Positions 4,291-64,000 of a stretch of DNA of 64,000 nt are shown here, in pieces. Under the pieces are notes generated by a model. That model was not told the DNA's origin, ran no database searches, and saw only the letters and a list, made by a program, of their open reading frames with translations. The translations under genes were made by a program, and so were the position numbers. The stretch comes from an uncultured Bacilli bacterium (GTDB lineage: Bacteria; Bacillota_I; Bacilli_A; RF39; UBA660): NCBI GenBank assembly GCA_944332705.1, contig CALVKM010000005.1, forward strand, positions 3,618 to 67,617. The letters run 5' to 3'. Every line of letters begins with the position of its first letter. Position 1 is the first letter of the stretch.

Positions 4291-5313
4291 ATGAAAAAGA
4301 TAATTGTATTACTTATAATTGGTATTTTATTTTTAATTATTCCTAATTTTTTTAATGCTTATAATATATTAAGGTTAATAAGTGTTCTTTTAGGTATAAT
4401 TCTTATTACCATTAGTTTGATATTTTCACCAAATAAAAATATTTATTTAATAGTAATTATGCCATTGTTTTTAATACTTTTATCGTATTCAATTGATATA
4501 TTTTTATATTCAAAATTTAATAGAATACCTATATATGTTTATGAAATAAAAAGTAATGATAATATTAGTACTTATAATAGTTTATTTTATCGTATTTATA
4601 ATTGTAATAATACATTAACTCTTGATTATAATTATCAAAAAAAATATGTTTGTGGAAATGATACTTTAGATGAAATAGATATTAATACATTTTTACTCAA
4701 TCCTAAAGAAAATTTTAAAATTTATAAAAATAAATTTGTTAAAATAATTGGTAAAATAAGTAAAATTAGTGGTAGAGAACTTATTGAATTAAATGCTTAT
4801 GATGAAACAGCTAATGCTTTAAATGGTTATGTAACATTTAATAATGATTATAAAATTGATGTTCATCTTGATGAAGATTTAAGTAATTATCGTATTTATG
4901 ATTATTTAACTGTTATTGGTCGGGTGGTTTCATATGAAAATGGCACAATTATTTTAGAAGATGCCTATACTATATCAAGTGATATATATGATGATTATAC
5001 TTATGAAGTAACAACTAATAATACAAAAAATTTAAAAATTCTTTTAAATAATTATTATTTATATGGAATTGATAGTATTAATGTGAAATATAGCAATAAT
5101 TCAATTTATGAGTTGAATTATGTACTAACTGATGGTAAAATTAACATAGGTGATATTATAAATAATATTGGTGGGGAAATATTAAGAGATTCAGAAAATA
5201 TAATAGTTGCCAAAAAATATGAATTAGATGATTTTAATATTATGGTATGTGAAAATGATAAAACAATATTTGCTAACAAGAATTATGAGTTAAATGCTAA
5301 TTTGTGTAATTAG
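4291..5313 (+). CDS. integral membrane protein of unknown function (about 3 N-terminal TM helices plus a soluble domain)
   Basis: 340-aa ORF with a hydrophobic N-terminus. The segment KFVKIIGKISKISGRELIELNAYDE...LTVIGRVVSYENGTIILE weakly resembles an OB-fold barrel. It sits immediately upstream of the pilin-like gene. Confidence 0.5.
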   Translation: MKKIIVLLIIGILFLIIPNFFNAYNILRLISVLLGIILITISLIFSPNKNIYLIVIMPLFLILLSYSIDIFLYSKFNRIPIYVYEIKSNDNISTYNSLFYRIYNCNNTLTLDYNYQKKYVCGNDTLDEIDINTFLLNPKENFKIYKNKFVKIIGKISKISGRELIELNAYDETANALNGYVTFNNDYKIDVHLDEDLSNYRIYDYLTVIGRVVSYENGTIILEDAYTISSDIYDDYTYEVTTNNTKNLKILLNNYYLYGIDSINVKYSNNSIYELNYVLTDGKINIGDIINNIGGEILRDSENIIVAKKYELDDFNIMVCENDKTIFANKNYELNANLCN

Positions 5314-5327
5314 AGGTGGTGTTTTTG

Positions 5328-7634
5328 ATGAATAAAAAAGGATTTACATTAGTTGAGTTACTTGGAGTTATTGCAATACTTGCAATAATAATAGGAATAT
5401 CTTTTGCAATCTATACAAGAGTGAGAAATGATGTATTAAATCAAGAATTAGCAAATGTTGTGTCATATATTGAAGCTCAAGCGGAAAATTATGCAAATGA
5501 TACTAATATAACTGTAGTAAGTGTGGAAGATTTAATACTTGATGGATATATTGAACCAGATGATGAGACTGATATCTATAGTCCAGTAACCGGAGAGAGT
5601 TTAAATTGTTATTTAGTTAGAAGTACTTATGAAGACGGTGAGTTTACTTCAGTTTTAGATTTTGATAGTCTACTAAATCGTGATGAAACAAGTGGTACAT
5701 GTGATATATATGCATCAGAAGTTCAAGCATTTATTGGTGTTCAAGAAATTACTGACGATGGTTCTGTTGAAGGTTTTCATAAACCTCAAAGCACTAATGG
5801 AGAAATAAAATGGTATAAAAATGACTTGTATTTAGCTCCTTTAGGAGAGAATAATTCTATCATCGATATCGATGGAGCTACCTATGAATGGCGTAACAAT
5901 TATGGCGAAATGTCCGATGAACAAATAATTAGAACAGAAGTATCTAATGGAACCATTGCCAATATTCCTTATACAGTAGCCATAAGATATATGGAAAACG
6001 AAAGTATGCAAGAAATAACAGCATCAGAAACAATTCATATTGATAAAGAAGCCCCAAGAATAATAGATATTGAAGTTCCAGAAAGTACAGAATGGACTAT
6101 CTCAAAGACCATAACTATCAAAGCAACTGATGGTTCAGGTTCTGGTATTGCAGGAATATATTACGGTTTAGCTGATGAACTATCTACTTGTACAGCTGAT
6201 TTAAATTATATTACAGATATTAATGGAGATACATTTAGTACTGATGTTATGACAAGTGGTATATATCGGGCTTGTGCTATAGATAAAGTGGGAAATGTCT
6301 CAGAAATTAGTGATGAATTTATAGTAAGTCGAGTAGATGGAGCAATAGATACATTAACTTTAACTGGTATACCTGAATTTGATATAGTTCGAAGTGTAGA
6401 ACTTCGTGGTCAAGCTCAAGATGATGGTGTTGGATTAGTAAACTATGGCCATTTTGATAATAACAAACCGACGTGGCAAAAGAATTTTGAAGCAACCAAT
6501 GAATTGTTTACTCTTGATAGAACAGTAAGTGAAAATGGATTGTATTATTTTTGTGCAATAGATGGTCTTGACAATGAAGTTTGTGTATCATATCGTGTAT
6601 CTAATATAGATAATACGGGACCAAACATAGATATAACTAAAAGTACAACAAATTATGCGACAAGTATTACATTAACCATAACTGCTAGTGATATATATGA
6701 AGAAGATAGTGATGGTAATGTGATAACTGCTGCATCGGGAATAGATGCTTATAGAGTGGTTACTCCATCAAGTTCAGGAAATTGGATAAGTGTTGATAAC
6801 ATAGATGACACGGAAACATTTACAACTAATATAACTGCTAATAATAATGGAACATATTATTTCTATGTTAGAGATAAAGCTGGTAATGAAACATCGAAAT
6901 CAATTAATGTTAATAATATTATAGTATTAACATCGCGAACTGTAAATTTATATAGTAGAGATGATGATTATATATCTCAAACATTTTCTCTAAGTGGTAT
7001 TATTCAATATGACCGTGCAACAATTGTAAGTGGTGGAGGAACAGTCTCAGGTTATAAATCTGGTAATGGAGTTAGACTCACTGTTAGTGGAGGTAATAAA
7101 TACACTGGTAAAGAATATCAAACATTTACGGAAAATCCTGATAGTTATCGGGCACACGAAGAAGAATATTGTTCTGGTTATTATTGTCCGAATGGTGGAG
7201 ATGTAAGTGGCAGTAGGTGTGTTGGTAGTGACTATTATCTTTATGGATGGAATGATTTAACTTGTCAATCTAGCGGTTGGTGGAATGTAACAGGTTATAG
7301 TGATCGATATTGTGAAGATCATTACTACAAAAATGATTTTGGTGGCGCTGCTTGTCCTACAGATCCTGGTTATTCATGTACAAGTTCGGTTGTTGGTGTA
7401 ACTGAAAGGGTTACGTGTCGTGCAACATGTGAATGGTTAGGAAATTACAGTGCAACATGTGAATATTATGATACAGAATATTATTGCAATCCTGGAGATG
7501 AACGTAGTGGAAGTTATTGTTATACTTGTACTAGAGGAGACTTCAATAGATATGGCGAATGTGAATATGAAACTTTAGTAAATTATGCATATTATGAATA
7601 TGATGTTATAATATATTATTATGTTTTAGAATAG
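5328..7634 (+). CDS. large modular type IV pilin-like protein (prepilin signal, Ig-like repeats, Cys-rich C-terminus)
   Basis: GAGGTGG RBS then ATG 5328. MNKKG/FTLVELLGVIAILAIIIGISFAIY is a class III (prepilin peptidase) signal with Glu at +5. Three repeats each end in D-x-(A/V/L)-G-N. The tail has about 14 Cys in about 130 aa. Confidence 0.75.
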   Translation: MNKKGFTLVELLGVIAILAIIIGISFAIYTRVRNDVLNQELANVVSYIEAQAENYANDTNITVVSVEDLILDGYIEPDDETDIYSPVTGESLNCYLVRSTYEDGEFTSVLDFDSLLNRDETSGTCDIYASEVQAFIGVQEITDDGSVEGFHKPQSTNGEIKWYKNDLYLAPLGENNSIIDIDGATYEWRNNYGEMSDEQIIRTEVSNGTIANIPYTVAIRYMENESMQEITASETIHIDKEAPRIIDIEVPESTEWTISKTITIKATDGSGSGIAGIYYGLADELSTCTADLNYITDINGDTFSTDVMTSGIYRACAIDKVGNVSEISDEFIVSRVDGAIDTLTLTGIPEFDIVRSVELRGQAQDDGVGLVNYGHFDNNKPTWQKNFEATNELFTLDRTVSENGLYYFCAIDGLDNEVCVSYRVSNIDNTGPNIDITKSTTNYATSITLTITASDIYEEDSDGNVITAASGIDAYRVVTPSSSGNWISVDNIDDTETFTTNITANNNGTYYFYVRDKAGNETSKSINVNNIIVLTSRTVNLYSRDDDYISQTFSLSGIIQYDRATIVSGGGTVSGYKSGNGVRLTVSGGNKYTGKEYQTFTENPDSYRAHEEEYCSGYYCPNGGDVSGSRCVGSDYYLYGWNDLTCQSSGWWNVTGYSDRYCEDHYYKNDFGGAACPTDPGYSCTSSVVGVTERVTCRATCEWLGNYSATCEYYDTEYYCNPGDERSGSYCYTCTRGDFNRYGECEYETLVNYAYYEYDVIIYYYVLE

Positions 7635-7651
7635 GAGATTATATAAGATTT

Positions 7652-8197
7652 ATGGAAAAGAAAAAGTGGTTTATAATTATTGGTGCTTTAATTTTACTAG
7701 TTTTAGTTGGAGTTTTAATAGCTGTATTTTTACTTAATAATAATAGTAGCAAATCAAAAACTGAAAATTTTGAAAATAGAATTATGACTTTATTTGATAA
7801 TAGTTATAAATATTACTACTATTTATATGGTGATATTAAAACTGGTGATGGTTATATTGAAGTTGATGGTGTTACTTATTATTATGTTGCTGAAGATTTA
7901 ATGTCAGTCAGAGAATTCAGAGAACTTGTTGAAGATACATTTTTAAATACTATGCTTGATAGTGTTCTTGAAGTTGAAAATACCAATGAATATATTAATG
8001 TTGATGATAAAATTTATGTTAAAAAAACAGAAAATCCTTGTAAAAATATTCATGAATATGATTTTAGTGATTTATATTATGATGGTGATGACGAAAAAAG
8101 ATATGCTTATTATAATCAAACAAGAACAGCTATATATAATGAAGATGGTATTTGGAAGTTAGGAAATAATATTTATGTTTGTGAATCAGAAGAATAA
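7652..8197 (+). CDS. N-terminally membrane-anchored protein of unknown function
   Basis: 181 aa with a MEKKKWFIIIGALILLVLVGVLIAVFLL anchor. No family recognised. Confidence 0.5.
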   Translation: MEKKKWFIIIGALILLVLVGVLIAVFLLNNNSSKSKTENFENRIMTLFDNSYKYYYYLYGDIKTGDGYIEVDGVTYYYVAEDLMSVREFRELVEDTFLNTMLDSVLEVENTNEYINVDDKIYVKKTENPCKNIHEYDFSDLYYDGDDEKRYAYYNQTRTAIYNEDGIWKLGNNIYVCESEE

Positions 8198-8254
8198 AAT
8201 CTTTTGATTTTTTCTTTATATAATAGGAAAGTTATACTTTTTTAAATAAAATTA

Positions 8255-8283
8255 TTGACATCCAAACGACTGTTTGGTATACT
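8255..8283 (+). promoter_or_regulatory. sigma-A type promoter with a palindrome in the spacer
   Basis: TTGACA (8255-8260), a 17-nt spacer, then TATACT (8278-8283). The spacer contains the perfect inverted repeat CCAAAC-gact-GTTTGG (8262-8277). Confidence 0.55.
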
Positions 8284-8307
8284 TGATTTACAAGGAGGAA
8301 ATTTGTT

Positions 8308-9790
8308 ATGGCTACTATTTAAGTCTAAATTGTTATATAGTTAGAAGTACTTATGAAGATGGAAAATTTACTGCAGAATTAAAATTAACTTCTGAAAATT
8401 ATATGGCAGATGAAAATGGAACTTGTACAAACTATGAAAAAGGTAGCGCTATTACGATTTATGCTTGTAAAAGTGATGGAACCTGCAAAGAGGTTGGAAA
8501 TAATTGGTATAATGAAAATGTGACTTTAGAAATTCGCTATCCTGATGGAAGTACTTTTCAAGAAGAAAATGCTACTTATGAATGGAAAACTAACCAAGGA
8601 ATAAATTATGATACTGCTACAGTTGCTACAAATGTCGCCGAAAATAATGCAATTACTTTACCATATACGGTAAATGTAACTTATCTAAAAGATGCTGAAA
8701 ATGTAATTGCTACTGTTAGTAAAAATGTTAAAATAGATATGCAACCACCAGAAATTTTAGAAACAATAATTAAAGATGAGGCAACTTGGACTAATACTGA
8801 AAAAGAAATAACTATAAGAGTAACGGATTATAATGGTTCAGGTGTTTATGGTATATATGTTGGAGATAAGGATTGTAGTTCACTTACAATTGAAGATTTT
8901 GAAAAGTTAAATGACAACAAATATATAACAACCAAAAATAATGGTACATATAATGTTTGCTTGAGAGATAATGCTGGCAATCAATCCGCAGGGGGGCTAA
9001 TAATTGGTATGTTGAAAATGTCAATTTAGTTTTAAACACCAGTGATGATGCAAGTGGAATATCTCAAAAAGGTATGTCTACTAGTAGCAAGGTTAATTAT
9101 AATAATGTCACTGCTAGTCTTCAAAGAAATACTAAAGGAACAACATATTATGGTTATGTCAAAGATGAAGCTGGGAATGTTGGATCTTGCAATTTAAATG
9201 TAAAAGTGGACTCGACACCACCAGAAATAAGTTTTAATATAAGTGGAATAGATACTGCTATAATGACATGTAGTGATGATACTAGTGGTATAAATGGTAA
9301 AACCAACTACAACCAAAGATTAACAGGAACGAGAGATTATACAGTAAATCAAACATGTACAAACAATGCTGGAGTTTCTGCAACTCGTAGCCATACATAT
9401 GATTATAGTAGTTGTGCAGATACTCATATTGAATGTAGACCAGGATGTGGTACTTATTATAGTGATTGTGCATCTGGATCAAATACTTGTCGTCCTGGAT
9501 ATGAACAAGTATGTACTGAGGTTTGTATTGGCGGTTATATTCAACATTATAATTGTTGTAGTAGTTTAAATGGTGGCAATTGTTTTGATTCAACTGTTAA
9601 TTATCCAAATGGTTATTGTGGTCCAACTTATAAAGAATGTAAAAAAAAGGGCCAATCTTGTACATCTGGAAGTTATAATCCATGTTATAGTGGCTCTAAT
9701 ACTTGTAAACCTGGTTATGTAACAGATCCAAGTACTTGTGATAGTTGTTATTATCGCGAAGAAGTTTGTGAAGGAGGATTTTTATATTGA
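8308..9790 (+). pseudogene. 5'-truncated, frame-disrupted paralog of the 5328..7634 pilin-like gene
   Basis: AAGGAGG RBS plus ATG 8308 gives only MATI-stop. Homology to the paralog starts at 8322, where 8322-8363 matches 5598-5639 at 38/42 nt. The frame breaks again in the overlap 8972-9027, which contains a G6 run (8991-8996). ORFs 8274..9029 and 9074..9790 are its two pieces. Confidence 0.7.
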
Positions 9791-10509
9791 AAAAAATAGA
9801 TTGGAAATTAATTATAATAATTATTTTAGTATTAGTGGCAATTATTGAAGGAATTTTATTGCTAAAAAAAGATTCTAATAACGAACCTTTAAAATCTGAA
9901 GAAAAAAGTACAGTTTATACTAATGATAATGTAGTATCCAAAGTATCAAATGATATCAATGTTGAATCTTTGATATATCGTAATGGTAAATCAATGCTAC
10001 TGAAATTAACTAGTTTGGAAAAAGATATAATGACATCTAATGTAACAGTTACTTTTAAAAATGATAATAATGAGGTCATAAATACTTTTTCAACACCAAC
10101 AGGATTTTTAGTTAAAGATGATCCATATGCCATAAATATAAATGTACCAGATATTACTAATGGTTATGCTGGAGATATAGAAGTAACTATAATGCCAACA
10201 TATTTAAATGAAGAAACATCATTTTATGATAAATCTTTAGTTAAATTAAATCATACTGAAACCAACAATGAAGATAATAGCATAACTATGAATTTAACTG
10301 GAATCAACCCTTTTGAAGGAGATATATCAATGATTCAAGGATTAATAATTTTAACAAACGATCAATTTGTTGTTCAAGTTGCTAATTTTGCTCAAAGTGA
10401 TATAACTAGTGGTAACGAAATAAATATAGATGTTGATATTGCTCCAGATGAAAACGGAAATTTGTTAACATATGATAATGTTGAAATAATTATAAATGAG
10501 CTATATTAA
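9787..10509 (+). CDS. N-terminally membrane-anchored protein of unknown function
   Basis: GAAGGAGG RBS then TTG 9787, which overlaps the upstream TGA. 240 aa with a KLIIIIILVLVAIIEGILLL anchor. Confidence 0.5.
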   Translation: MKKIDWKLIIIIILVLVAIIEGILLLKKDSNNEPLKSEEKSTVYTNDNVVSKVSNDINVESLIYRNGKSMLLKLTSLEKDIMTSNVTVTFKNDNNEVINTFSTPTGFLVKDDPYAININVPDITNGYAGDIEVTIMPTYLNEETSFYDKSLVKLNHTETNNEDNSITMNLTGINPFEGDISMIQGLIILTNDQFVVQVANFAQSDITSGNEINIDVDIAPDENGNLLTYDNVEIIINELY

Positions 10510-17900: not shown

Positions 17901-18592
17901 TTGAAAATGAAGCTGGGGTAAGAGAACATGTAACTAACTATAATATGAAAGTTCGTGTTAATGTTGGAGACACTGTTGAAGCTGGTGATAAACTTACTGA
18001 AGGTGTTATTTCACCAAAAGAATTACTTGCTGTAACAGATCCACTTACTGCTCAAGAATATATACTAAAAGAAGTTCAAAAAGTATATAAACTTCAAGGT
18101 GTTGACATTTCCGATAAACATATTGAAATTATTGTTAAGAGAATGATTAATAAAGTTCGTATTACTGATTCAGGAGATACTGACTTTGTTGAAGGTCTAA
18201 CTGTATCTTTAAGAGAATTTACTGAAGGAAATAAACCAGTCATTTTATCTGGTGGAGTACCTGCTAAAGGAAACCCAATCATGCTTGGTATTACTAAGAG
18301 TTCTCTTGAAACAGATTCCTTCTTATCAGCTGCTTCATTCCAAGAAACAACTCGTGTTCTAACTGATGCGGCAATTCATGGTAAAGTTGACTACTTGCAA
18401 GGTTTAAAAGAAAATGTTATCATTGGAAAACTTATCCCTGCAGGTACAGGTTATAAACAATATAGTGATTTAACTATAGAACTTGAAAAAGATGTTTTAG
18501 ATGATGATGCTAGTGAGATGTTAGAAGAAAAACTTATGGATGATGCGGATTTAAAAAATGACTTAGAAGAAGTTCAAGGAGATGCTGCTTAA
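14906..18592 (+). CDS. rpoC: DNA-directed RNA polymerase subunit beta'
   Basis: 1228 aa with the [12 protein letters not shown] catalytic motif and an N-terminal zinc finger CSCGKY...CDRCG. Confidence 0.98.
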
Positions 18593-18609
18593 GGGCATCT
18601 TCTTTTTGG
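18576..18609 (+). terminator. probable rho-independent terminator of rpoC
   Basis: AAGGAGATGC / GCATCTTCTT stem with a 9-nt loop, then a T-rich run. Overlaps the stop codon. Confidence 0.5.
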
Positions 18610-18665
18610 TTAATAATTTACAATTATATAAAAATATGATAAAATCAAAATGTAAGGTGATTAAA

Positions 18666-19424
18666 GTGCAAAATAAAAATAAAGCTTGTTTATTAATGGT
18701 AGCGATGATGATTTTAAATTCATCGTTTAATATTCCGCAAAAGAGTAATGCTCATCAAATAACTAAGATTGAAAAAAACCAAATAGAACAAGTACTTGAA
18801 ACACCAAAACCAGAAGATGTAGTTGAAATAACACTTCATAGTCCAGCTCCAACTTCTAATGTTCAGGTGGATTTAGAAAACATTGATATAAAAGAATTAT
18901 ATAATTTAGATTCCGAAACTATAAACCAATATTATGAATTATATGGCTATGAAAAAGCTATAGAATATATTTGTGAACATTATAATATAACATTTGAACA
19001 ATTTAAAGTAATTTGTGCCATTATTATGGCAGAAGGTAATCCAGATGTTACTTATCAATATAAAGAAAGTTATGCTGTAACAAATGTTTTATATAACAGA
19101 GTTCATAGTATATCATTCATAAATTTTGTTGATGCTTTTAATTATTACGACGGTCATAATATTTTTTATCAAGCAATATGTCCTAATCAATTTGAAGTTT
19201 ATCAAAATGGTAATTATTTAAACTTTTTTGGAGTTTTATCTGGAGATAGTTTCCGGGGAATAATTGATATGTTGATAAGTGAAAGAACAATGCATAATTA
19301 TTTAGAATACCGTTTTGCCAACAGTGACATTTTAGGAGAAACCTTTACTCCTAGAGGTAATATTTATTTTCATATTTTAACTGAAACGGATAAATATGAA
19401 AAAGATACTTTACAAACCAGATAA
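18666..19424 (+). CDS. SleB/CwlJ-family cell wall hydrolase domain protein (paralog 1)
   Basis: AIIMAEGNP...VTNVLYNRV...ICPNQFEVY matches the Hydrolase_2 pattern. AAGGTGA RBS precedes GTG 18666. The ORF track extends to 18582, with ATG 18636 as an alternative start. Confidence 0.6.
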   Translation: MQNKNKACLLMVAMMILNSSFNIPQKSNAHQITKIEKNQIEQVLETPKPEDVVEITLHSPAPTSNVQVDLENIDIKELYNLDSETINQYYELYGYEKAIEYICEHYNITFEQFKVICAIIMAEGNPDVTYQYKESYAVTNVLYNRVHSISFINFVDAFNYYDGHNIFYQAICPNQFEVYQNGNYLNFFGVLSGDSFRGIIDMLISERTMHNYLEYRFANSDILGETFTPRGNIYFHILTETDKYEKDTLQTR

Positions 19425-19470
19425 TTTATGATATTATAATCTCTTTTCTTGAAAGGAAAGGGATTATTTT

Positions 19471-20232
19471 ATGAATGAAAATTTAAAACTATATCTAATT
19501 ACGGCATTAATTGTATTATCTGGTATTAGTCTTAAACATTTTGGTAGCAATAAAACCTATAAAGTAGAAGAAATAAAAAGAGAAGAAATAGTTGTTGAAA
19601 CTCCTAGAAGTGCTAGTTCTAATTATGTTGAAAGTATGATATCGACATTAATCACTCCAATGCCAACACCAGAAGTAACTCCAACACCTATTACTTTAGA
19701 TATGTTATCAATTGAAGAATTATATGAATTTCCTACTGAAACTATTACATATTATTATGAAAAATATGGCTATGGGGCAGTAATTGATTATATTTGTACC
19801 AAATATAATTGGAGTTATGATACTTTTGTATCTTTAGCATCCATTGTTTTGTGTGAAGCGAGTAGTGATTATATTGATGGGTATTGGGTAGTAAATACAA
19901 TGTATAATCGAACGATAACCAAAAATTGGGCAGCGGCCCATGGTACTGATATGTATAATCAAGCTATTGCTCCAGGACAATTTGTTGTATTTGAATCTAG
20001 TAGTTATTATTCAGTTTATAATAACTTTACTAGTCAATTTACTGATCCGGCATTTCGGGGAATGATTGATTTTTTGGTTACTAATGTATCTTTACATAAT
20101 TATTTGAATTTCCATGCTAATGGAGTTCCTAGTGCTGGAGAAGAGTTAAGTTGTTCACGTGGTAATGTTTATTATAATGAAATAAAACCTGAAAATTTAT
20201 TAGATGAGCATCGCCGCACTTTAGCAAAATAA
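19471..20232 (+). CDS. SleB/CwlJ-family cell wall hydrolase domain protein (paralog 2)
   Basis: Same architecture as the upstream gene: an N-terminal anchor, then IVLCEASSD...VVNTMYNRT...IAPGQFVVF. Confidence 0.6.
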   Translation: MNENLKLYLITALIVLSGISLKHFGSNKTYKVEEIKREEIVVETPRSASSNYVESMISTLITPMPTPEVTPTPITLDMLSIEELYEFPTETITYYYEKYGYGAVIDYICTKYNWSYDTFVSLASIVLCEASSDYIDGYWVVNTMYNRTITKNWAAAHGTDMYNQAIAPGQFVVFESSSYYSVYNNFTSQFTDPAFRGMIDFLVTNVSLHNYLNFHANGVPSAGEELSCSRGNVYYNEIKPENLLDEHRRTLAK

Positions 20233-20430: not shown

Positions 20431-21015
20431 ATGCAAATTGAAAAAGTATGTGAACCTATTATTGCTGTGAGAAGAAGTCAATATCCTACTGATAATTTAC
20501 CAGAGTTTTTACTTGTAGGGAGAAGCAATGTTGGTAAAAGTAGTTTTATTAATACTTTAATTGAAAGGAAGAACTTTGCTAAAACTTCTTCTAAACCTGG
20601 AAAAACCCAAACGCTTAATTTTTATTTAGTTAATGATTCTTTTTATTTAGTAGATGTACCTGGTTATGGTTATGCTTCTGTTAGTAAAGATAAACAAAAG
20701 AAATTTGGACTTATGATTGAAGAATATTTAAAAAATAGACCAAATCTTAGAAATGTCTTTTTGTTAATTGATTATCGGCATAAACCAACAGAAGATGATG
20801 TATTAATGTATGAATTTTTGAAATATTATAATTTAGATATTACGATTGTAGCTACAAAATATGATAAGATTAGTAAAAATAATCGATTGAAACAAGATAA
20901 GTTAATTAAAGATACTCTAAAAATTAGTGAAGATGATGAATTTATTACATTTTCAACTGTTACAAAAAAAGGCCGTAGTGAAATATTAGATATTTTAGAA
21001 AGTAGGATAAAATGA
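20431..21015 (+). CDS. engB: ribosome biogenesis GTP-binding protein YsxC/EngB
   Basis: [19 protein letters not shown]1 motif, DVPGYG G3 motif, TKYDK G4 motif, 194 aa. Confidence 0.9.
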
Positions 21016-21467
21016 AGAAAAAAGGGTTTACATTAATTGAGTTACTAGCAGTTATTGCAATTTTAGCAATAGTTATAACTATTGCTCTTATTAGTGTTAC
21101 GAGAATTAGAGAAAATGCTTTATTAGAGGTTGTTGAAACCAAAAAAGCTCAAATAGAACAAGCGGCGATTCTTTATGGCCAAGATTATCCAAATGAATTT
21201 ACTACTAATGATACAGATTGTAGTGGCAAAGAAATAACTACAACTAATAATGAAGGAAGAGATACAAATTATACAATTAATTTTTGTGTTGTAAAGAATG
21301 CGGGAGATTTAATTGATGGTGGTTACTTTGATAGTGGTTACTTAGATGAAGTAAATGGCAAGCAAGATTTAATTAATGATGTAACTGGTGAGAGTATGCG
21401 GGGAGAAGAAGTTATAATATACCGGAGAAATAACCGAATTTATTCAATACTTATGGAAAAAGTATAG
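21012..21467 (+). CDS. type IV pilin-like protein (prepilin-type N-terminal cleavage/methylation domain)
   Basis: [29 protein letters not shown] with Glu at +5. Its globular part shares the DLIDGGY...VTGESM signature with the N-module of 5328..7634. ATGA overlap with the engB stop. Confidence 0.8.
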
Positions 21468-59744: not shown

Positions 59745-60788
59745 ATGAAATCAGTTAAAGATGAAAAGAATAAAGATAAGGCACTAGAACAAGTTCTAGC
59801 AGATATTGAAAAACAATTTGGAGCTGGTGCTATCATGAAACTTGGGGATAATGAACATATTGAAGTGGATGTGGTATCTAGTGGTTCTATTGCAATTGAT
59901 GTTGCTTTAGGTGTTGGAGGTTACCCAAAGGGCAGAATTATAGAAATATATGGACCGGAATCAAGTGGTAAAACAACAGTTGCATTGCAAGCTATAGCAG
60001 AAGTACAAAAAGCTGGAGGTAGAGCAGCATTTATTGATGCAGAACACGCACTTGATCCTGTATATGCTAAAAATTTAGGTGTTGATATAAATGAACTTTT
60101 ATTAAGTCAACCAGATACTGGAGAACAAGCTTTAGAAATTTGTGATGCTTTAGTTAAAAGTGAAGCAGTAAGTTTAATTATAATTGACTCAGTTGCTGCA
60201 TTAGTTCCCCAAGCGGAAATAGATGGGGAAATGGGAGATTCTCATGTTGGTTTACAAGCTAGACTTATGTCCCAAGCTTTAAGAAAATTATCAGGTACTA
60301 TGAACAAAACTAAAACAACTGCGATATTTATTAATCAACTTCGTGAAAAAGTTGGAGTAATGTTTGGTAATCCCGAAACTACACCAGGTGGTAGAGCTCT
60401 TAAATTTTACTCAACAATTCGTCTTGATGTAAGAAAAGGTGAACAAATTAAAATGGGAGACCAAATAATTGGTAATAAAACCAATATTAAAGTAGTTAAA
60501 AATAAAGTTGCTCCACCATTTAAAACTGCTAGTGTAGATATTATGTATGGGGAAGGTATTTCTAAAGAAGGAGAAATTATTGATATTGCTAGTGATTTAG
60601 CAATTCTAGATAAAAGTGGAGCATGGTATTCATATAACGGTGAAAAAATAGGTCAAGGTAAAGAAAATGTTAAGGCTTATTTAAAAGAAAATACTAATCT
60701 TCGTGATGAACTTGAACAAAAGATTAGAGAACATTATGGTTTTGTAAAATCTAAAGATAAAAAAGAAGATAAAAAGAATGCAGAATAA
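59745..60788 (+). CDS. recA: recombinase RecA
   Basis: GPESSGKTT Walker [10 protein letters not shown] Walker B, 347 aa. Confidence 0.97.
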
Positions 60789-60812
60789 AAAAGGTCGTAA
60801 GACCTTTTTTTT
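60787..60812. terminator. bidirectional terminator between recA and the convergent permease gene
   Basis: AAAAAAGGTC-GTAA-GACCTTTTTTTT. Confidence 0.75.
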
Positions 60813-63800
60813 ATTCCACAGATTTTAATGAATCAATCATATTTACTTTTCTAAGGATAAAGTTAGTAATTATTTGAACAATTATAGTAAATATAATCAT
60901 AATTACAACTGTTAAAATATAACTTAAATAATGTATTTGTTTAATGAATATTATTTCATCAGTCTCGGCAACAGTTAAGACAAAGGCATTTAGACCAATA
61001 CCTAAGATTAAGCCAATAATTATACCAATAATAGTTAAAATAATTGTTTCTCTATAAACATACATAGATATTTCTTTATCATTAAAACCAAGGACTTTTA
61101 GTGTAGCTATTTCTCTAGTTCTTTCCGAAATATTAATAGTTGTTAGGTTATATAAAACTGTAATAGCAAGTACTGATGAGAAGCCAATTATTAAGAAAAC
61201 TATATGGTTCATACTATCAAAAATATCTTGCAGAGTTGAAACACTATCTTCTGTATATTGAATATTACTAAAATAATTACTTGCAAGAAGGGTATCACCT
61301 AAATCATTGATGTTAGCAATAATTGTGTTATAAGAGATATCCCCAAAAACTAAATTGTAATAGTTAATATTCATATAAACATAATTATTAATATAATTTC
61401 TACTAATTCCAGAAATTTTTATTACATATATTTCATTGTTATTGTCTCGGAGAGTTATGGTATCACCAACTGAAACATTTAATATATCAGCAATTTTTTC
61501 AGTAATTATTGCTCCTTCATCATCTAAAGATAAAGGATTGCCATCTAAATCTTTTAAGTCATAATAATTACTAATATCATTATCCATAAAGGCCATAGAG
61601 TAAACATCAATATTTTTGCTATTGGCAGCAAAAGTTAGTGTTTCCATGTGAGCATATAAGGGATTTTCAATATTATTATTTGCAAGTAAATTATTTATTT
61701 CAGTATTTTCTTCAGTAACCGATTCATTTAAGAATAACATGGAGTCATATTTTTCTATTTCTCCGTATTGTATATCAACAATTTTGGATATACTATCTTT
61801 TATACCAAAGCCTGTTAAAAGTAGGGCAGTACAACCAGATATGCCAATTAGAGTCATGATGATTCTTTTTTTGTATCTAAATAAATTTCTAATTGTAACT
61901 TTCCAAGAAAATGATATTCTTTTCCAAATAAAGTTGATTTTTTCAAGCAATACTTTACGACCATTTTTAGGACTAGCTGGTCTAAGTAGATTAGCAGGAC
62001 TGTTTTTAAATTTAACAGCTACAGCAATATATGTAACTAGAGCCATAGTAATTATACAAACTTCAATTATACTTATACATATTGGAATATTTGCATAAGT
62101 TTTTAATCCCGGAATAATGTATGATTGTGTGTATACATTGTATAAAACATGAGGTATTATTGTATAACCAATTGTTAGACCAATTAATAAACCAAGTAAA
62201 GTAGCAATTAAAACATAGAATATATAACTAAATATTATTTTAAATTTGCCAATTCCAAGGGATGTGAAAATACCAATTTCGGTTCTTTCTTCTTCAATCA
62301 TTCTAGTCATGGTATTTAGACACATTAGGAAGGCAACAGCAATAAAGAATATTGGAAATACTGCAGCAATTGAATCAATTTTAGTGGCTGATTCTAAGAA
62401 TGTTGTATATCCTGAATTATCTTCACGGTCAAATAAATACCATTCTGGTTTTTCGAGGGTTGCAATTTCCGCTTCAGCATCAGCGATTTGTGCTAAACCT
62501 TCATTGACTTTATTTTGAAATTCATTGTAGTTAGTATTGTATTCTTCTAAACTAGCATTTAGAGTTCTTTGTTGTTCATCTAAAGTCGCTTTATTAGAAT
62601 TTAGAGTATTTATTGTTTCATTATAGGTATTATTAAATTCATTGCGAGCATTAGTAATTTCTGTAAAACCATTCTTTATTTCATTTAAACTAGATACTAA
62701 AGTATTTAAATTATTAATAGTTTCCTTAGTTGTTTGATATTCTATACTTGCTGGATCAAGTGTTGCAAGTAAATTATTTAGGTTAGTAATCTCGGTATTT
62801 AGAGCAGTAATTGATTCATCTATGCTACTAGTGGTAATACCAAAATTTGTTAAGTTAGCATTAATGGTAGCTAAATTAGAATTAAGATTAGCTTCATTAG
62901 TATCAAGTTCTGTTAATACTTGAGTTCTTCTTGCTTCTAATTCTGCTCTTGCATCATTTATTTCTTTATAACCATTATCAATTTGTAATTGACCATTATC
63001 TAGTTCTTCTTTAGCATCTGCAAATTTTTCTTCATTTTCTTCTCTTAAGTTATTTATTTCTTCTCTGGCATCATAGATTTCTTCCATGGCTGCAGTTTTA
63101 ATTTCTTCATATCTGATTGTTTCTCTAATTGGTGCAAGTTCTTCAAGCTCTGCATTTAACTTTGTTATTATTTCTTCATAATCATCACGATAGCTTGTTG
63201 CATCAATACTTTCTTTAGCGATTAGATAAATTTCAGTGTAATATTCCATATTGAAATTTTCTTTATTTATATATATAACATTATCAAGTTTGCCATCTGA
63301 TACAGTAGATATACCAAGATTATTATAAATATACATACTACTATTTATGGTACCTACAACTTTATAAGTATTATTTTTTAAATAATCCCCATAATCTTCA
63401 TCTTCGATTATTATGGTATCACCGATGTTGTATGAGCCATCTAAAACTAAACATTCGTTATTTGCATCAGGCATTTTGCCATCAACTAAAATAACATTGT
63501 TGATATCATTAGTTATTCCATATATTTTAGTAGCATCACCAGCAATTACAGTTTCATAGGTGTAGTTTGCCTCAACAACTTCGGCATTATCCAAATTTTT
63601 AAGAGCAGTTAAGTCATCTTCCGTTAAGCCCATGGTACTAACAATGCGATAGTCCATTAACTTAGTTTCATCATAATATTCATCCATAGTGCGAATCATA
63701 TCGGATGAAGTTTCACGAACTCCGGCGAAAAATGCTGCCCCAATAGCAATAATTAAAATTAAAGTTATAAAGCGACCTAAGGAATGTTTGATTTTTCGCA

Positions 63801-63822
63801 AGGTATTTTTGAACATAAACAT
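60811..63822 (-). CDS. ABC transporter permease, FtsX/MacB type, with two FtsX domains and a long coiled-coil extracytoplasmic region
   Basis: About 1003 aa. N-terminal TM, large ECD with a Leu/Asn/Glu heptad-like region, and two 4-TM FtsX modules. ATG 63822 overlaps the upstream TAA (TAATG). Confidence 0.8.
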   Translation of the reverse strand: MFMFKNTLRKIKHSLGRFITLILIIAIGAAFFAGVRETSSDMIRTMDEYYDETKLMDYRIVSTMGLTEDDLTALKNLDNAEVVEANYTYETVIAGDATKIYGITNDINNVILVDGKMPDANNECLVLDGSYNIGDTIIIEDEDYGDYLKNNTYKVVGTINSSMYIYNNLGISTVSDGKLDNVIYINKENFNMEYYTEIYLIAKESIDATSYRDDYEEIITKLNAELEELAPIRETIRYEEIKTAAMEEIYDAREEINNLREENEEKFADAKEELDNGQLQIDNGYKEINDARAELEARRTQVLTELDTNEANLNSNLATINANLTNFGITTSSIDESITALNTEITNLNNLLATLDPASIEYQTTKETINNLNTLVSSLNEIKNGFTEITNARNEFNNTYNETINTLNSNKATLDEQQRTLNASLEEYNTNYNEFQNKVNEGLAQIADAEAEIATLEKPEWYLFDREDNSGYTTFLESATKIDSIAAVFPIFFIAVAFLMCLNTMTRMIEEERTEIGIFTSLGIGKFKIIFSYIFYVLIATLLGLLIGLTIGYTIIPHVLYNVYTQSYIIPGLKTYANIPICISIIEVCIITMALVTYIAVAVKFKNSPANLLRPASPKNGRKVLLEKINFIWKRISFSWKVTIRNLFRYKKRIIMTLIGISGCTALLLTGFGIKDSISKIVDIQYGEIEKYDSMLFLNESVTEENTEINNLLANNNIENPLYAHMETLTFAANSKNIDVYSMAFMDNDISNYYDLKDLDGNPLSLDDEGAIITEKIADILNVSVGDTITLRDNNNEIYVIKISGISRNYINNYVYMNINYYNLVFGDISYNTIIANINDLGDTLLASNYFSNIQYTEDSVSTLQDIFDSMNHIVFLIIGFSSVLAITVLYNLTTINISERTREIATLKVLGFNDKEISMYVYRETIILTIIGIIIGLILGIGLNAFVLTVAETDEIIFIKQIHYLSYILTVVIMIIFTIIVQIITNFILRKVNMIDSLKSVE

Positions 63823-64000
63823 TACCAATCAATCTCCTCAACACTTTTAGGCTTTTTGTGAATTATAATATCTTCAATAGTTCCATTTTTCACTTTTATA
63901 ACTTTATCAGCAATTTGTGCAATTACAGCATTGTGGGTAATAATAATTGTTGTTGTTTTAGTTTTGTGACAAGTGTCTTGTAATAACTTAATAATCATTT
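63822..64000 (-). CDS. ABC transporter ATP-binding protein, C-terminal part (5' end beyond the window)
   Basis: Manual translation gives ...MIIKLLQDTCHKTKTTTIIITHNAVIAQIADKVIKVKNGTIEDIIIHKKPKSVEEIDW-stop. The H-loop ITHN and the tail are typical of MacB/LolD-type ATPases. Confidence 0.75.
   Translation of the reverse strand, partial: MIIKLLQDTCHKTKTTTIIITHNAVIAQIADKVIKVKNGTIEDIIIHKKPKSVEEIDW

What the first reader, a model, noticed from the sequence alone, without database searches (positions are those of the whole stretch)
5328..7634. 768-aa modular type IV pilin-like protein: pilin module, three Ig-like repeats and a Cys/Tyr/Gly-rich knob
The N-terminus MNKKG/FTLVE plus a hydrophobic helix is a textbook prepilin-peptidase substrate. 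Ordinary pilins are about 150 aa. Here the pilin module (about 90-230 aa) is followed by three repeats of about 95 aa. Each repeat starts with a (D/N)-x-x-x-P-x-I strand, carries D-x-SG(I/L), and ends with Y-x-x-x-x-x-D-x-(A/V/L)-G-N. The tail of about 130 aa has about 14 Cys and many Tyr and Gly. That is very unusual for an extracytoplasmic Firmicute protein and suggests disulfide knots, cross-linking or metal binding. Modular pilins carrying adhesive domains are known, for example in Streptococcus sanguinis, but this domain set is different. No pilus assembly genes (ATPase, platform, prepilin peptidase) are in the window. Given the sporulation genes nearby, a spore-surface or appendage role is conceivable, but that is pure speculation.
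Basis: partly seen in the sequence, partly recalled or inferred. Interest (0 to 1): 0.7.

Follow-up and report, generated by a model that had tools for sequence, protein, structure and literature searches.

The report
Giant modular type IV pilin
This gene encodes an oversized pilus subunit from an uncultured gut bacterium: a standard pilin "handle" carries a stalk of three antibody-like domains and a disulfide-rich end domain of unknown fold, most likely a pilus-tip adhesin, and it is paired with a small co-evolving membrane protein.

Summary
ORF 5328-7634 encodes a 768-aa protein with a canonical prepilin signal (MNKKG|FTLVE), a predicted 52-residue alpha-1 helix and a pilin head. After these come an extra beta domain and three homologous Ig-like repeats (profile-profile E 1e-9 to 6e-24). 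The protein ends in a 238-aa all-beta domain whose last 158 aa hold 14 Cys and 27 Tyr.

It belongs to a conserved family found only in uncultured low-GC gut Bacilli MAGs (Ca. Onthocola, UMGS910 and relatives). The pilin module is the best conserved part; the stalk and tail diverge quickly. In 42 of 44 non-redundant tails the Cys count is even, and Cys are gained or lost in pairs, which points to disulfides rather than metal binding. The end domain has no Pfam, PDB or viral-fold match.

New points:
- Each paralog is followed by a small membrane-anchored partner whose family matches the tail type.
- Cassette number varies between strains.
- The window also holds a 5'-truncated paralog and a 151-aa pilin.

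The window holds no assembly genes, but related MAGs encode a scattered PilB/PilC/PilD-type machinery.

Best reading: a modular minor pilin, probably a tip adhesin. It is a new variant of a known kind. The spore-appendage idea is unsupported.

The parts
4291..5313 (+). Upstream 340-aa membrane protein. By eye it has about 3 N-terminal hydrophobic helices followed by a roughly 265-aa domain. It is the first gene of the cassette locus and ends 14 nt before the pilin ATG.
   Evidence: ORF. No Pfam, NCBIfam or PDB match. Orthologs of 66-72% identity sit at the same position ahead of the pilin genes in L002, L005, L006, L007 and L102.
5328..5342 (+). Leader peptide MNKKG of the class III (prepilin) signal. 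The predicted prepilin-peptidase cleavage site lies after Gly5.
   Evidence: PF07963 and TIGR02532 score above their cut-offs. Gly-1, Phe+1 and Glu+5 are invariant in 42 homologs, while leader length varies from 5 to about 22 basic residues.
5343..5717 (+). Pilin module, residues 6-130. It comprises the alpha-1 helix (residues 8-59), an invariant acidic loop P-D-D-E-T-D-I-Y (residues 77-84), a beta sheet, and the conserved pair C94/C125.
   Evidence: The AF2 model shows a helix at 8-59 followed by strands. PDB sequence hits cover the pilin alpha-1 only: Geobacter PilA 1.8e-7, PpdD, PilE1, MshA. It is the most conserved part of the family, at 63-67% mean identity.
5718..6032 (+). Extra beta domain D2, residues 131-235. 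It is the least conserved segment.
   Evidence: All-beta in the AF2 model. It shows no similarity to the repeats and has no Pfam match. Mean identity is 29%.
6033..6926 (+). Three tandem Ig-like repeats: R1 6033-6326, R2 6327-6602, R3 6603-6926.
   Evidence: hhalign E 1e-9 to 6e-24. Foldseek matches tandem Ig arrays such as GhpA, LILRB, alpha-2-macroglobulin MG domains and SiiE, with E down to 5e-8. There are weak Big_9/Ig_2 and OmpL47-type hits. The same repeat occurs 12-27 times in giant Sec/LPXTG surface proteins.
6927..7631 (+). C-terminal all-beta domain, residues about 531/534-768. The last 158 aa hold 14 Cys and 27 Tyr, and the domain ends in a 23-residue strand. This is the type A tail.
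   Evidence: AF2 pLDDT 92.4. No Pfam match. No PDB fold neighbour: best E 0.026, probability 0.04. No convincing viral fold neighbour. Even Cys count in 42 of 44 tails, with paired Cys gain and loss. Every complete protein checked that carries it has a pilin-type N-terminus.
7652..8197 (+). Cognate 181-aa partner. It has an N-terminal signal anchor (by the positive-inside rule, N-in/C-out), an ectodomain of about 145 aa, and two conserved Cys (C130, C177).
   Evidence: It starts 17 nt after the pilin stop. Homologs of 26-58% identity follow every type A tail gene in L002 (twice), L005, L006, L086, L087, L102 and L103. No Pfam, NCBIfam or PDB family match.
8255..8283 (+). Near-consensus sigma-70-like promoter (TTGACA-17-TATACT with an extended TG) ahead of the truncated paralog.
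   Evidence: 11 of 12 positions match. The sequence upstream of 8322 is unrelated to the intact ortholog's 5' coding region.
8322..9790 (+). 5'-truncated, frameshifted paralog with a type B Cys-rich tail. It lacks the first ~90 codons (signal peptide and alpha-1). The frame breaks near a G-run at about 8990.
   Evidence: tblastn against the intact 645-aa ortholog of L002 matches residues 91-316 in one frame and 341-623 in another. Intact 642-645-aa versions exist in L002 and L087.
9787..10509 (+). 240-aa membrane-anchored partner of the type B tail. It is intact and contains no Cys.
   Evidence: 67% identical to the 234-aa protein of L002 and 47% to the 235-aa protein of L087. Both of those follow intact type B pilins.
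21012..21467 (+). Ordinary-sized 151-aa type IV pilin between engB and der. It is a candidate major subunit of the filament.
   Evidence: PF07963 at 35 bits. 48% identical to the large pilin over residues 1-58. The engB-pilin-der order is conserved across at least 10 related MAG loci.

Best explanation
The gene encodes a modular minor type IV pilin of an uncultured low-GC gut Bacilli species.

Proposed mechanism:
1. The short basic leader is removed after Gly5 by a prepilin peptidase.
2. The hydrophobic alpha-1 helix with Glu5 first holds the protein in the membrane.
3. That helix then docks the protein into a type IV filament built by a PilB/PilC-type machinery encoded elsewhere in the genome. 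The bulk of the filament is probably made of a small pilin such as the 151-aa engB-der pilin.
4. Because of its bulk (about 640 extra residues), the protein sits at or near the filament tip.
5. There, the D2 domain and three Ig-like domains form a stalk. The stalk holds out a disulfide-stabilised, Tyr-rich all-beta end domain that binds a ligand, such as a host, mucus, food-particle or other-cell surface.
6. The small membrane-anchored protein encoded just downstream, which co-varies with the tail type, acts on or with that end domain outside the membrane, for example in folding, holding or docking.

Shown here: the signal motif, the domain architecture, repeat homology, family conservation pattern, even-Cys pattern and partner covariation.

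Inferred: cleavage, filament incorporation, tip position, adhesion and the partner's role.
For: Prepilin signal:
- N_methyl and TIGR02532 score above their cut-offs.
- Gly-1, Phe+1 and Glu+5 are invariant across 42 homologs that are otherwise only 35-56% identical. Leader length varies from 5 to about 22 residues.

Pilin fold:
- AF2 predicts a 52-residue alpha-1 helix followed by a beta head.
- PDB sequence hits are all pilin alpha-1 helices.

Conservation pattern:
- The pilin module is the most conserved part (63-67% identity against about 30% for the rest). This is what an assembly interface with exposed, variable outer parts would show.

Stalk:
- Three homologous Ig-like repeats match tandem Ig arrays of adhesins.
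- The same repeat is shared with giant Sec/LPXTG surface proteins.

End domain:
- The model is confident (pLDDT 92.4).
- Every complete protein checked that carries it has a pilin-type N-terminus, including pilin modules that are quite divergent.
- Disulfides are indicated by even Cys counts in 42 of 44 tails (chance about 6e-11 if the tails were independent) and by paired Cys gain and loss at columns 600/749, 676/697 and 635/753. The same even-count logic is used in PMC2823432.

Machinery in the lineage:
- GspE/PilB-type ATPases sit next to small and large pilins in L029, L054, L056 and L058.
- L057 carries an operon of T2SSF, A24 peptidase, pilins and a 1355-aa LRR modular pilin.

Concept precedent: S. 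sanguinis PilB and PilC, which modelling predicts sit at the pilus tip (PMC8179133, PMC9934059).
Against: - No PilB, PilC or PilD gene lies in the 64-kb window, and none of the loci that carry full-architecture family members has one within 10 kb. The rest of this genome could not be examined.
- No ligand-binding fold could be recognised in the end domain, so adhesion is inferred from architecture alone.
- Related genomes carry many large pilin-like genes, up to six in tandem in L037. That is more than a single filament tip would seem to need and fits a general surface-display role as well.
- A strictly anaerobic Firmicute would need an oxidative folding route, and none was found in the window.
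Confidence: 0.55

Rival explanations
1. Filament-independent surface display. The prepilin signal serves only as an export and membrane-anchor device, as class III signal peptides do for the sugar-binding proteins of the archaeal bindosome. The protein stays rooted in the membrane by alpha-1. Its roughly 25-30 nm chain of beta domains spans the cell wall to expose the end domain. This lineage would then use pilin-type signals as a general way to display surface proteins.
For: - Related MAGs hold very many large pilin-like genes with varied C-termini, scattered among housekeeping genes or in tandem arrays. There are 111 pilin-motif ORFs in about 1.3 Mb of loci, and six in a row in L037.
- The full-library search found 991 relatives, and among the 150 listed most share only the N-terminal ~330 residues.
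- No assembly gene lies near any full-architecture member.
Against: - Glu5 and the whole pilin head, including the invariant PDDETDIY loop and the C94/C125 pair, are the most conserved parts. That is hard to explain for a mere anchor.
- The lineage does keep PilB/PilC/PilD-type genes and small pilins in conserved positions.
- In L057 a 1355-aa modular pilin sits at the end of an operon of prepilin peptidase and minor pilins.
Confidence: 0.2
2. Polymorphic effector and immunity-like pair. The conserved pilin-plus-stalk region is a delivery or presentation device. The variable Cys-rich tail is an effector acting on neighbouring cells, either as an antagonist or as a strain-specific recognition tag. 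The co-varying downstream membrane protein protects or matches the producer. The truncated second copy with its intact partner would be an orphan module.
For: - Paralogs share a conserved N-terminal region but carry at least three unrelated tail types (A, B, C). Each type is followed by its own partner family.
- Tail and partner diverge to similar extents: type A 39% against 34-43%, type B 62% against 67%.
- Cassette number differs between close strains. L102 and L103 carry an extra cassette of an 800-aa pilin and a 186-aa partner.
- The 5'-truncated type B copy keeps an intact partner gene.
Against: - No toxin domain, catalytic motif or pore-former fold was detected in any tail.
- One relative (L085) has two family pilins with no downstream partner at all.
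- Co-variation is equally expected for a dedicated chaperone or docking factor.
- No pilin-borne toxin precedent was found in the papers searched.
Confidence: 0.12
3. The Cys/Tyr-rich tail is a metal-binding or covalently cross-linking module rather than a disulfide-stabilised binding domain. Possible chemistries are thioether, dityrosine or transglutaminase links.
For: - Cys and Tyr are very dense in the tail.
- A radical SAM/SPASM gene lies between two paralogs in L004.
- A transglutaminase-core gene lies upstream of the family pilins in L085.
Against: - Even Cys counts in 42 of 44 tails and pairwise gain and loss point to disulfide pairs.
- There are no CxxC or CxxH spacing patterns typical of metal sites.
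- The radical SAM gene sits beside what looks by eye like an unrelated HD-domain gene, and this pairing is seen in one locus only.
- The only redox neighbour seen is a weak PedC/BrcD-type disulfide isomerase match (24.5 bits against a cut-off of 120) in L085.
Confidence: 0.08
4. Spore-surface or spore-appendage protein, as the first reader speculated from the neighbouring spoIVA.
For: spoIVA lies 1.6 kb upstream, and the spoIVA-hup-cassette order is kept in the closest relatives.
Against: - A terminator-like hairpin follows hup.
- Family members occur in unrelated contexts in L004, L085 and L086.
- Foldseek matches to Bacillus Ena appendage proteins are noise: probability 0.04, TM 0.07.
- A prepilin signal implies export from the mother cell or vegetative cell membrane, not spore-coat assembly.
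Confidence: 0.02

Closest known systems
Streptococcus sanguinis PilC (modular minor pilin: pilin module + Ig-like module + ConA-like lectin; PMC9934059)
   Same: It is from a monoderm host. It has a class III signal with Glu5 and a small pilin module followed by Ig-like and then distal modules. Modelling predicts that it is presented at the tip of a type IV pilus.
   Different: The protein here has an extra beta domain, three Ig-like repeats instead of one, and a Cys-rich end domain with no lectin or other recognisable fold. There is no sequence similarity beyond alpha-1. It is not encoded in a pil operon, and it has a dedicated downstream partner gene.
Streptococcus sanguinis PilB (pilin + vWA adhesin) and the 'modular pilin' class defined by Raynaud et al. 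2021 (PMC8179133; more than 1,200 proteins, 264 architectures)
   Same: A functional module is grafted onto a pilin module. That paper notes that modular pilins with undetectable extra domains are probably under-counted, and this protein is such a case.
   Different: No vWA/MIDAS domain. The architecture here (pilin-D2-3xIg-Cys-rich beta domain) cannot be found by InterPro-style domain searches, because only N_methyl is detected.
ETEC CofB (type IVb minor pilin: pilin + beta-repeat + beta-sandwich), as described in the discussion of PMC8179133
   Same: A large minor pilin whose all-beta C-terminal domains are invisible to domain databases, and which is proposed to sit at the tip.
   Different: CofB comes from a diderm type IVb system. 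It shares no homology with this protein, and no Cys-rich domain or cognate downstream partner is described for it.
Polymorphic toxin / contact-dependent inhibition loci (CdiA-CT/CdiI, Rhs; from general knowledge)
   Same: A conserved N-terminal region, swappable C-terminal tails, a cognate small gene immediately downstream, a truncated 'orphan' copy, and strain-variable cassette content.
   Different: No toxin domain was recognised. The partners are extracytoplasmic membrane-anchored proteins. The delivery module is a pilin. This is an analogy only.

Membership tests
Type IV pilin (class III signal peptide proteins, PF07963 / TIGR02532 / IPR012902) | Short basic leader ending in Gly, then Phe/Met+1, a hydrophobic stretch of about 20 residues, and Glu at +5 | tested here: met
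   MNKKG|FTLVELLGVIAILAIIIGISFAIY. PF07963 scores 28.3 bits against 21.2. TIGR02532 scores 21.6 bits against 16.3. G5, F6, T7, L8 and E10 are invariant in 42 homologs.
Type IV pilin (class III signal peptide proteins, PF07963 / TIGR02532 / IPR012902) | Extended N-terminal alpha-1 helix of about 50 residues packed on a beta-sheet head | tested here: met
   The AF2 model has a helix at residues 8-59, followed by strands at 95-115 and 135-140. pLDDT is about 70-88 in this region. This is a prediction only.
Type IV pilin (class III signal peptide proteins, PF07963 / TIGR02532 / IPR012902) | Cleavage and N-methylation by a dedicated prepilin peptidase (Peptidase_A24) encoded in the same genome | not testable with these tools
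   None is present in the window. A24 peptidases are present next to pilins in related MAG loci L057 and L050. The rest of this genome is not available.
Type IV pilin (class III signal peptide proteins, PF07963 / TIGR02532 / IPR012902) | Polymerisation into a filament by a T2SSE ATPase and a T2SSF platform protein | not testable with these tools
   Neither is present in the window. GspE/PilB-type ATPases occur in L029, L054, L056 and L058, and a GspF/PilC-type platform protein in L057, all from related Bacilli MAGs. Only two proteins could be compared between the L056 organism and the window organism: a response regulator at 60% identity and a permease at 42%.
Modular pilin (sensu Raynaud et al. 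2021, PMC8179133) | An N-terminal pilin module followed by one or more additional structural modules not specific to pilus biogenesis | tested here: met
   D2, three Ig-like repeats and a 238-aa end domain follow the pilin module.
Modular pilin (sensu Raynaud et al. 2021, PMC8179133) | The extra module has a direct role in a pilus-mediated function such as adhesion | not testable with these tools
   No ligand-binding fold was recognised. This needs experiment.
ComGC competence major pilin (NF040999) | Score above the equivalog cut-off, a protein of about 100 aa, and location in a comG operon | tested here: not met
   32.3 bits against a cut-off of 75. The protein is 768 aa, and no comG genes are adjacent.
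Sortase-assembled Gram-positive pili / LPXTG adhesins | Sec signal peptide and a C-terminal LPXTG sorting signal | tested here: not met
   The protein has a class III signal, not a Sec signal, and its C-terminus is ...IIYYYVLE with no LPXTG. Only the Ig-like repeat is shared with LPXTG proteins such as P0121.
Bacillus Ena endospore appendages (disulfide-linked pili) | Ena (DUF3992-type) jellyroll subunit fold | tested here: not met
   Foldseek matches to 7a02 and 9i0y have probability 0.04 and TM about 0.07. There is no sequence match.
Polymorphic toxin-immunity systems | Variable C-terminal domains on a conserved N-terminal region, each with a cognate downstream gene | tested here: met
   Tail types A, B and C pair with three partner families in the window, L002, L005, L006, L008, L086 and L087. 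L085 is an exception, with no downstream partner.
Polymorphic toxin-immunity systems | A recognisable toxin domain or activity in the C-terminal region | tested here: not met
   No Pfam, PDB or BFVD match to any toxin. Activity cannot be tested here.

The most novel reading that the evidence does not exclude
The locus may be a pilus-borne polymorphic system. A conserved pilin-plus-Ig stalk presents interchangeable disulfide-rich tail domains, each matched by a co-evolving membrane-anchored partner. Orphan tail/partner modules and strain-variable cassette numbers would fit this. It would amount to a type IV pilus-mediated contact-dependent antagonism or strain-recognition system in uncultured, small-genome gut Bacilli.
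Probability: 0.12. Interest if true: 0.8.

Novelty: new variant of a known kind. Interest (0 to 1): 0.5.

Why it matters
Modular pilins explain how simple type IV filaments gain new functions, yet only a few have been studied, mainly S. sanguinis PilB and PilC and ETEC CofB. This family adds four things:
- An architecture that domain databases cannot detect.
- A confidently predicted end domain with no match in the PDB or viral structure libraries searched.
- An unusually Cys-rich, apparently disulfide-bonded exported domain in an anaerobic Firmicute lineage. Firmicutes generally exclude Cys from exported proteins (PMC2823432).
- A cognate partner gene that co-varies with the tail type.

The hosts are uncultured, widespread gut Bacilli for which no surface biology is known. 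A pilus-tip adhesin or recognition module would therefore be a concrete handle on how they attach to hosts, particles or other cells. The end domain could also serve as a bait for enrichment or cultivation.

Tried and rejected
- Self-BLAST of the protein found no repeats. Profile-profile comparison was needed to see them.
- Pfam, NCBIfam and PDB sequence searches of D2, the end domain and the three partner and upstream proteins gave nothing usable.
- Foldseek of the end domain against the PDB and BFVD gave only noise. An uncharacterised Fusobacterium phage protein was the best viral hit, at TM 0.15. Low-ranked aerolysin-type matches (parasporin-2, lysenin) were considered and rejected at probability 0.02-0.06.
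- The radical SAM/SPASM gene beside paralogs in L004 was considered as a Cys-modifying maturase. It was set aside because it occurs in one locus only, next to what looks by eye like an unrelated HD-domain gene.
- A PedC-like oxidoreductase was sought in the window and in all fetched loci and not found.
- I tried to link a PilB-type ATPase to this very genome. The ATPase family is so abundant and conserved (7,986 hits at E<=1e-100) that the right ortholog could not be singled out.
- I first mistook FtsK for a pilus ATPase from its Walker A motif. Pfam corrected this.
- A word-index search with the 181-aa partner returned only 4 clusters, so it was uninformative.
- A scan of viral contigs found only generic pilin N-termini, so the family is not phage-borne. 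The scan with the end-domain alignment alone could not be run because no stretch was conserved enough.
- The idea that the truncated copy is a pilS-like silent cassette was rejected. It shares only about 41% protein identity with the expressed gene in the overlapping region.
Full report
**1. The observation**

The window is a 27-30% GC Firmicute contig with nearly all genes on the + strand. ORF 5328-7634 starts at an ATG that lies 8 nt after an AGAGGTGG ribosome-binding site, and it encodes 768 aa.

The N-terminus MNKKG/FTLVELLGVIAILAIIIGISFAIY scores above the curated cut-offs of two models:
- Pfam N_methyl: 28.3 bits against 21.2.
- TIGR02532: 21.6 bits against 16.3.

Sub-threshold matches also reach ComGC and other pilin models over the first ~80 residues.

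They are clear when sub-alignments of the family are compared profile to profile:
- R1 (236-333) vs R2 (334-425): E 4e-11.
- R1 vs R3 (426-533): E 1e-9.
- R2 vs R3: E 6e-24.
- No other pair of segments scores.

The last 158 residues hold 14 Cys, 27 Tyr and 17 Gly. That is about 7-fold, 3-fold and 2-fold above the frequencies in the other ORFs of the window. One correction concerns the repeat motifs, which are less regular than described, because R2 departs from two of the three.

**2. Structure prediction**

An AlphaFold2 model built on 42 homologs has a mean pLDDT of 83.9. It shows:
- a 52-residue N-terminal helix (residues 8-59), the trademark of type IV pilins;
- a small beta head;
- a further beta domain (D2, residues 131-235);
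- three beta-sandwich repeats;
- an all-beta C-terminal region.

Foldseek of the whole model against the PDB returns tandem Ig-like arrays. These include the Aureispira grappling-hook protein GhpA, LILRB receptors, macroglobulin MG domains and the Salmonella adhesin SiiE, with E values down to 5e-8. A profile of the family searched against PDB sequences hits only the alpha-1 helices of pilins: Geobacter PilA at 1.8e-7, then PpdD, MshA, PilE1 and PilA.

The C-terminal 238 residues, modelled alone, give pLDDT 92.4. The Cys-rich stretch is therefore not a separate knob. It is part of one domain that begins near residue 531 and ends in a 23-residue strand. This domain has no Pfam match. It has no credible neighbour in the PDB (best E 0.026, probability 0.04) or among predicted viral structures (best TM 0.15-0.27). 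No library of cellular predicted structures was available, so "no known fold" holds only within those limits.

**3. The family and its hosts**

A word-indexed search found 79 clusters, most of them 720-800 aa long. An exhaustive HMMER search of 1.84 billion representatives found 991 relatives at E<=1e-3, of which 100 were at E<=1e-30.

Three patterns stand out among the 150 listed representatives:
- The first ~330 residues (pilin module, D2 and the first Ig repeat) recur on proteins of 300 to more than 1,100 aa with different C-termini.
- The Ig repeat alone recurs 12-27 times in giant proteins of 2,000-4,500 aa that carry Sec signals, one of them with an LPXTG anchor.
- The full architecture is confined to about 20 of these representatives.

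Every complete protein checked that carries it has a pilin-type N-terminus, even where the pilin modules are quite different. The exceptions are fragments.

The hosts are uncultured gut Bacilli MAGs from humans, chickens, rabbits and ruminants. They are labelled Candidatus Onthocola, Firmicutes CAG:460, or "uncultured Tenericutes/Bacilli". The closest genome fetched is UMGS910, whose EngB is 98% and Der 99% identical to the window's. The family is absent from viral contigs.

Within the family, Gly-1, Phe+1, Thr+2, Leu+3 and Glu+5 are invariant, while the leader varies from 5 to about 22 basic residues. The pilin module is by far the most conserved part, at 63-67% mean identity against 29-46% for every other segment. 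This is the pattern expected if the N-terminal module is an assembly interface and the remainder is exposed and free to vary. It argues against the N-terminus being a mere signal anchor.

**4. The cysteines**

Among 44 non-redundant type A tails, the Cys count is 14, 16, 18 or 20 in 42 cases and odd in 2. The binomial chance would be about 6e-11 if the tails were independent, which they are not fully.

Cys also appear and disappear in pairs:
- Columns 600/749: 23 tails have both, 17 have neither, 4 have one.
- Columns 676/697: 29 both, 10 neither, 5 one.
- Columns 635/753: 4 both, 40 neither, 0 one.

Even-biased Cys counts are the accepted signature of disulfide-bonded exported proteins, and Firmicutes as a group tend to exclude Cys from exported proteins (Daniels et al., PMC2823432). 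The domain remains unusual for its phylum.

The only redox gene seen near a family member is a membrane-anchored CxxC protein in L085. It matches PedC/BrcD bacteriocin-maturation disulfide isomerases only weakly, at 24.5 bits against a cut-off of 120. None was found in the window.

**5. Gene neighbourhood**

The pilin gene is the middle gene of a tight trio. A 340-aa multi-pass membrane protein (4291-5313) ends 14 nt upstream. A 181-aa protein with an N-terminal signal anchor (7652-8197) starts 17 nt downstream. A terminator-like hairpin separates the trio from hup and spoIVA.

Comparison with relatives shows a rule. Paralogous pilins share the N-terminal region but carry at least three unrelated Cys-rich tails, and each tail type is followed by its own family of small membrane-anchored proteins:
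- **Type A** (this gene) is followed by the 181-aa family, which has two conserved Cys about 48 residues apart.
- **Type B** (C-x-G-x-N-T-C repeats) is followed by a Cys-free family of ~235-240 aa.
- **Type C** (ending CCCC...WDGxGNC) is followed by a four-Cys family of ~185-207 aa.

This pairing is seen in the window and in L002, L005, L006, L008, L086 and L087. Tail and partner also diverge to similar degrees. One relative, L085, has two family pilins and no downstream partner.

Cassette number varies between close strains. Two other samples carry an extra cassette, an 800-aa pilin with a 186-aa partner, between the 340-aa gene and the ortholog of this gene.

In the window, the type B copy (8322-9790) is degenerate in three ways:
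- The first ~90 codons are replaced by unrelated sequence that holds a near-consensus promoter.
- The ATG that follows that promoter is out of frame.
- The reading frame breaks near a G-run.

Its partner gene (9787-10509) is nevertheless intact.

**6. Assembly machinery**

Neither the window nor any of the loci with full-architecture members contains a T2SSE ATPase, a T2SSF platform protein or an A24 peptidase. Two apparent ATPase hits were FtsK.

Related Bacilli MAGs do carry such genes:
- A GspE/PilB-type ATPase (Pfam T2SSE, E 1e-122) stands alone between a penicillin-binding protein gene and a small pilin plus proS. Further large pilins lie nearby (L029, L054, L056, L058).
- L057 has an operon of a GspF/PilC-type platform protein, an A24 prepilin peptidase, several small pilins and a 1,355-aa pilin with BspA-type leucine-rich repeats.
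- This ATPase family is very abundant and highly conserved in gut metagenomes.

The window itself holds an ordinary 151-aa pilin between engB and der. That position is conserved across at least ten related MAG loci, and this pilin is a plausible major subunit.

The lineage therefore has a dispersed type IV pilus gene set, and absence from a 64-kb window is uninformative. Whether this particular genome has the machinery could not be tested.

**7. Interpretation**

The best-supported reading (confidence about 0.55) is a modular minor pilin in the sense of Raynaud et al. (PMC8179133). It would be cleaved after Gly5 and inserted through its conserved pilin module at or near the tip of a type IV filament. 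There it would display a disulfide-stabilised, Tyr-rich end domain on a stalk of Ig-like domains. The downstream partner would act on that domain outside the membrane.

The closest characterised analogue is S. sanguinis PilC (pilin + Ig-like + lectin; PMC9934059). ETEC CofB is a second analogue.

The rivals are:
- **Filament-independent surface display** through the pilin-type anchor (0.2). It is suggested by the sheer number of large pilin-like genes in these genomes.
- **A polymorphic effector and immunity-like system** (0.12). It is suggested by tail-partner covariation, strain-variable cassettes and the orphan-like truncated copy, but no toxin domain supports it.
- **A metal-binding or cross-linking tail** (0.08). 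The Cys parity argues against it.
- **A spore appendage** (0.02). Variable genomic context, the terminator after hup and the lack of any Ena-like fold argue against it.

**8. Verdict**

The finding is real and correctly recognised as a modular type IV pilin-like protein. It is a new variant of a known kind. The concept is established, but four features are undescribed in the literature searched:
- the domain set;
- the unmatched end domain;
- the disulfide richness in a Firmicute;
- the cognate partner genes.

Interest is moderate at 0.5. It would rise if the tail-partner pairs proved to be a pilus-borne recognition or antagonism system.

Noticed in passing
window 8198-10509: A second, degenerate family member. 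A near-consensus promoter (8255-8283) and an RBS plus ATG (8309) are followed by an out-of-frame remnant (8322-9790) of a 645-aa type B pilin. The remnant lacks its first ~90 codons and is frameshifted near a G-run at about 8990. The cognate 240-aa partner gene (9787-10509) is intact. Intact versions of the pilin exist in relatives (L002, L087).
   Followed up: yes
window 21012-21467: An ordinary 151-aa type IV pilin lies between the GTPase genes engB and der. The same engB-pilin-der order is seen across at least 10 related MAG loci (L028, L031, L032, L035, L039, L041, L043, L049, L067 and others). It may be the major subunit of the filament.
   Followed up: partly
L102 2971-5926 and L103 2699-5654: Other strains of the same species (their 768-aa protein is more than 90% identical) carry an extra cassette, an 800-aa pilin plus a 186-aa partner, between the 340-aa gene and the ortholog of this gene. 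Cassette number is therefore polymorphic, and both contigs break just after the 181-aa gene.
   Followed up: partly
L085 5379-7843: In a relative whose two family pilins (723 and 718 aa) have no downstream partner, the genes immediately upstream are a 587-aa transglutaminase-core protein and a membrane-anchored CxxC protein. The latter weakly resembles PedC/BrcD bacteriocin-maturation disulfide isomerases (24.5 bits against a cut-off of 120).
   Followed up: partly
L057 660-9678: One operon in a related MAG encodes a GspF/PilC-type platform protein, an A24 prepilin peptidase, three or four small pilin-like proteins and a 1,355-aa pilin with BspA-type leucine-rich repeats. It is followed by three paralogous membrane proteins of ~550-680 aa.
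   Followed up: partly
L037 9989-20241: Six large pilin-motif genes (268-683 aa) lie in tandem in one 'uncultured Tenericutes' MAG. This lineage has a large expansion of oversized pilin-like proteins.
   Followed up: no
L004 8661-9908: A 269-aa radical SAM/SPASM protein and a 141-aa protein that looks by eye like an HD-domain protein sit between two distant family paralogs (741 and 756 aa). greA, comEA and comEC follow. The link to the Cys-rich tails is probably coincidental.
   Followed up: partly
window 18582-20232: rpoC is followed not by rpsL-rpsG-fusA-tuf but by two paralogous ORFs (280 and 253 aa). They share an internal motif (EELY..D.ETI.YYYE.YGY...I.YIC.KYN) and have hydrophobic N-termini. 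Their function was not examined.
   Followed up: no
window 60000-64000: GC skew turns from positive to negative, and gene orientation flips (the 1,005-aa permease-like ORF 60811-63828 is on the - strand), after 60 kb of uniformly + strand genes. This may be a replication-related strand switch.
   Followed up: no
L054 13181-15352: A 723-aa pilin carrying a Pfam Gly_rich_2 domain lies about 3 kb from the stand-alone PilB-type ATPase in MAG RUG840. This is a direct genomic link between a large modular pilin and the assembly ATPase in this lineage.
   Followed up: partly
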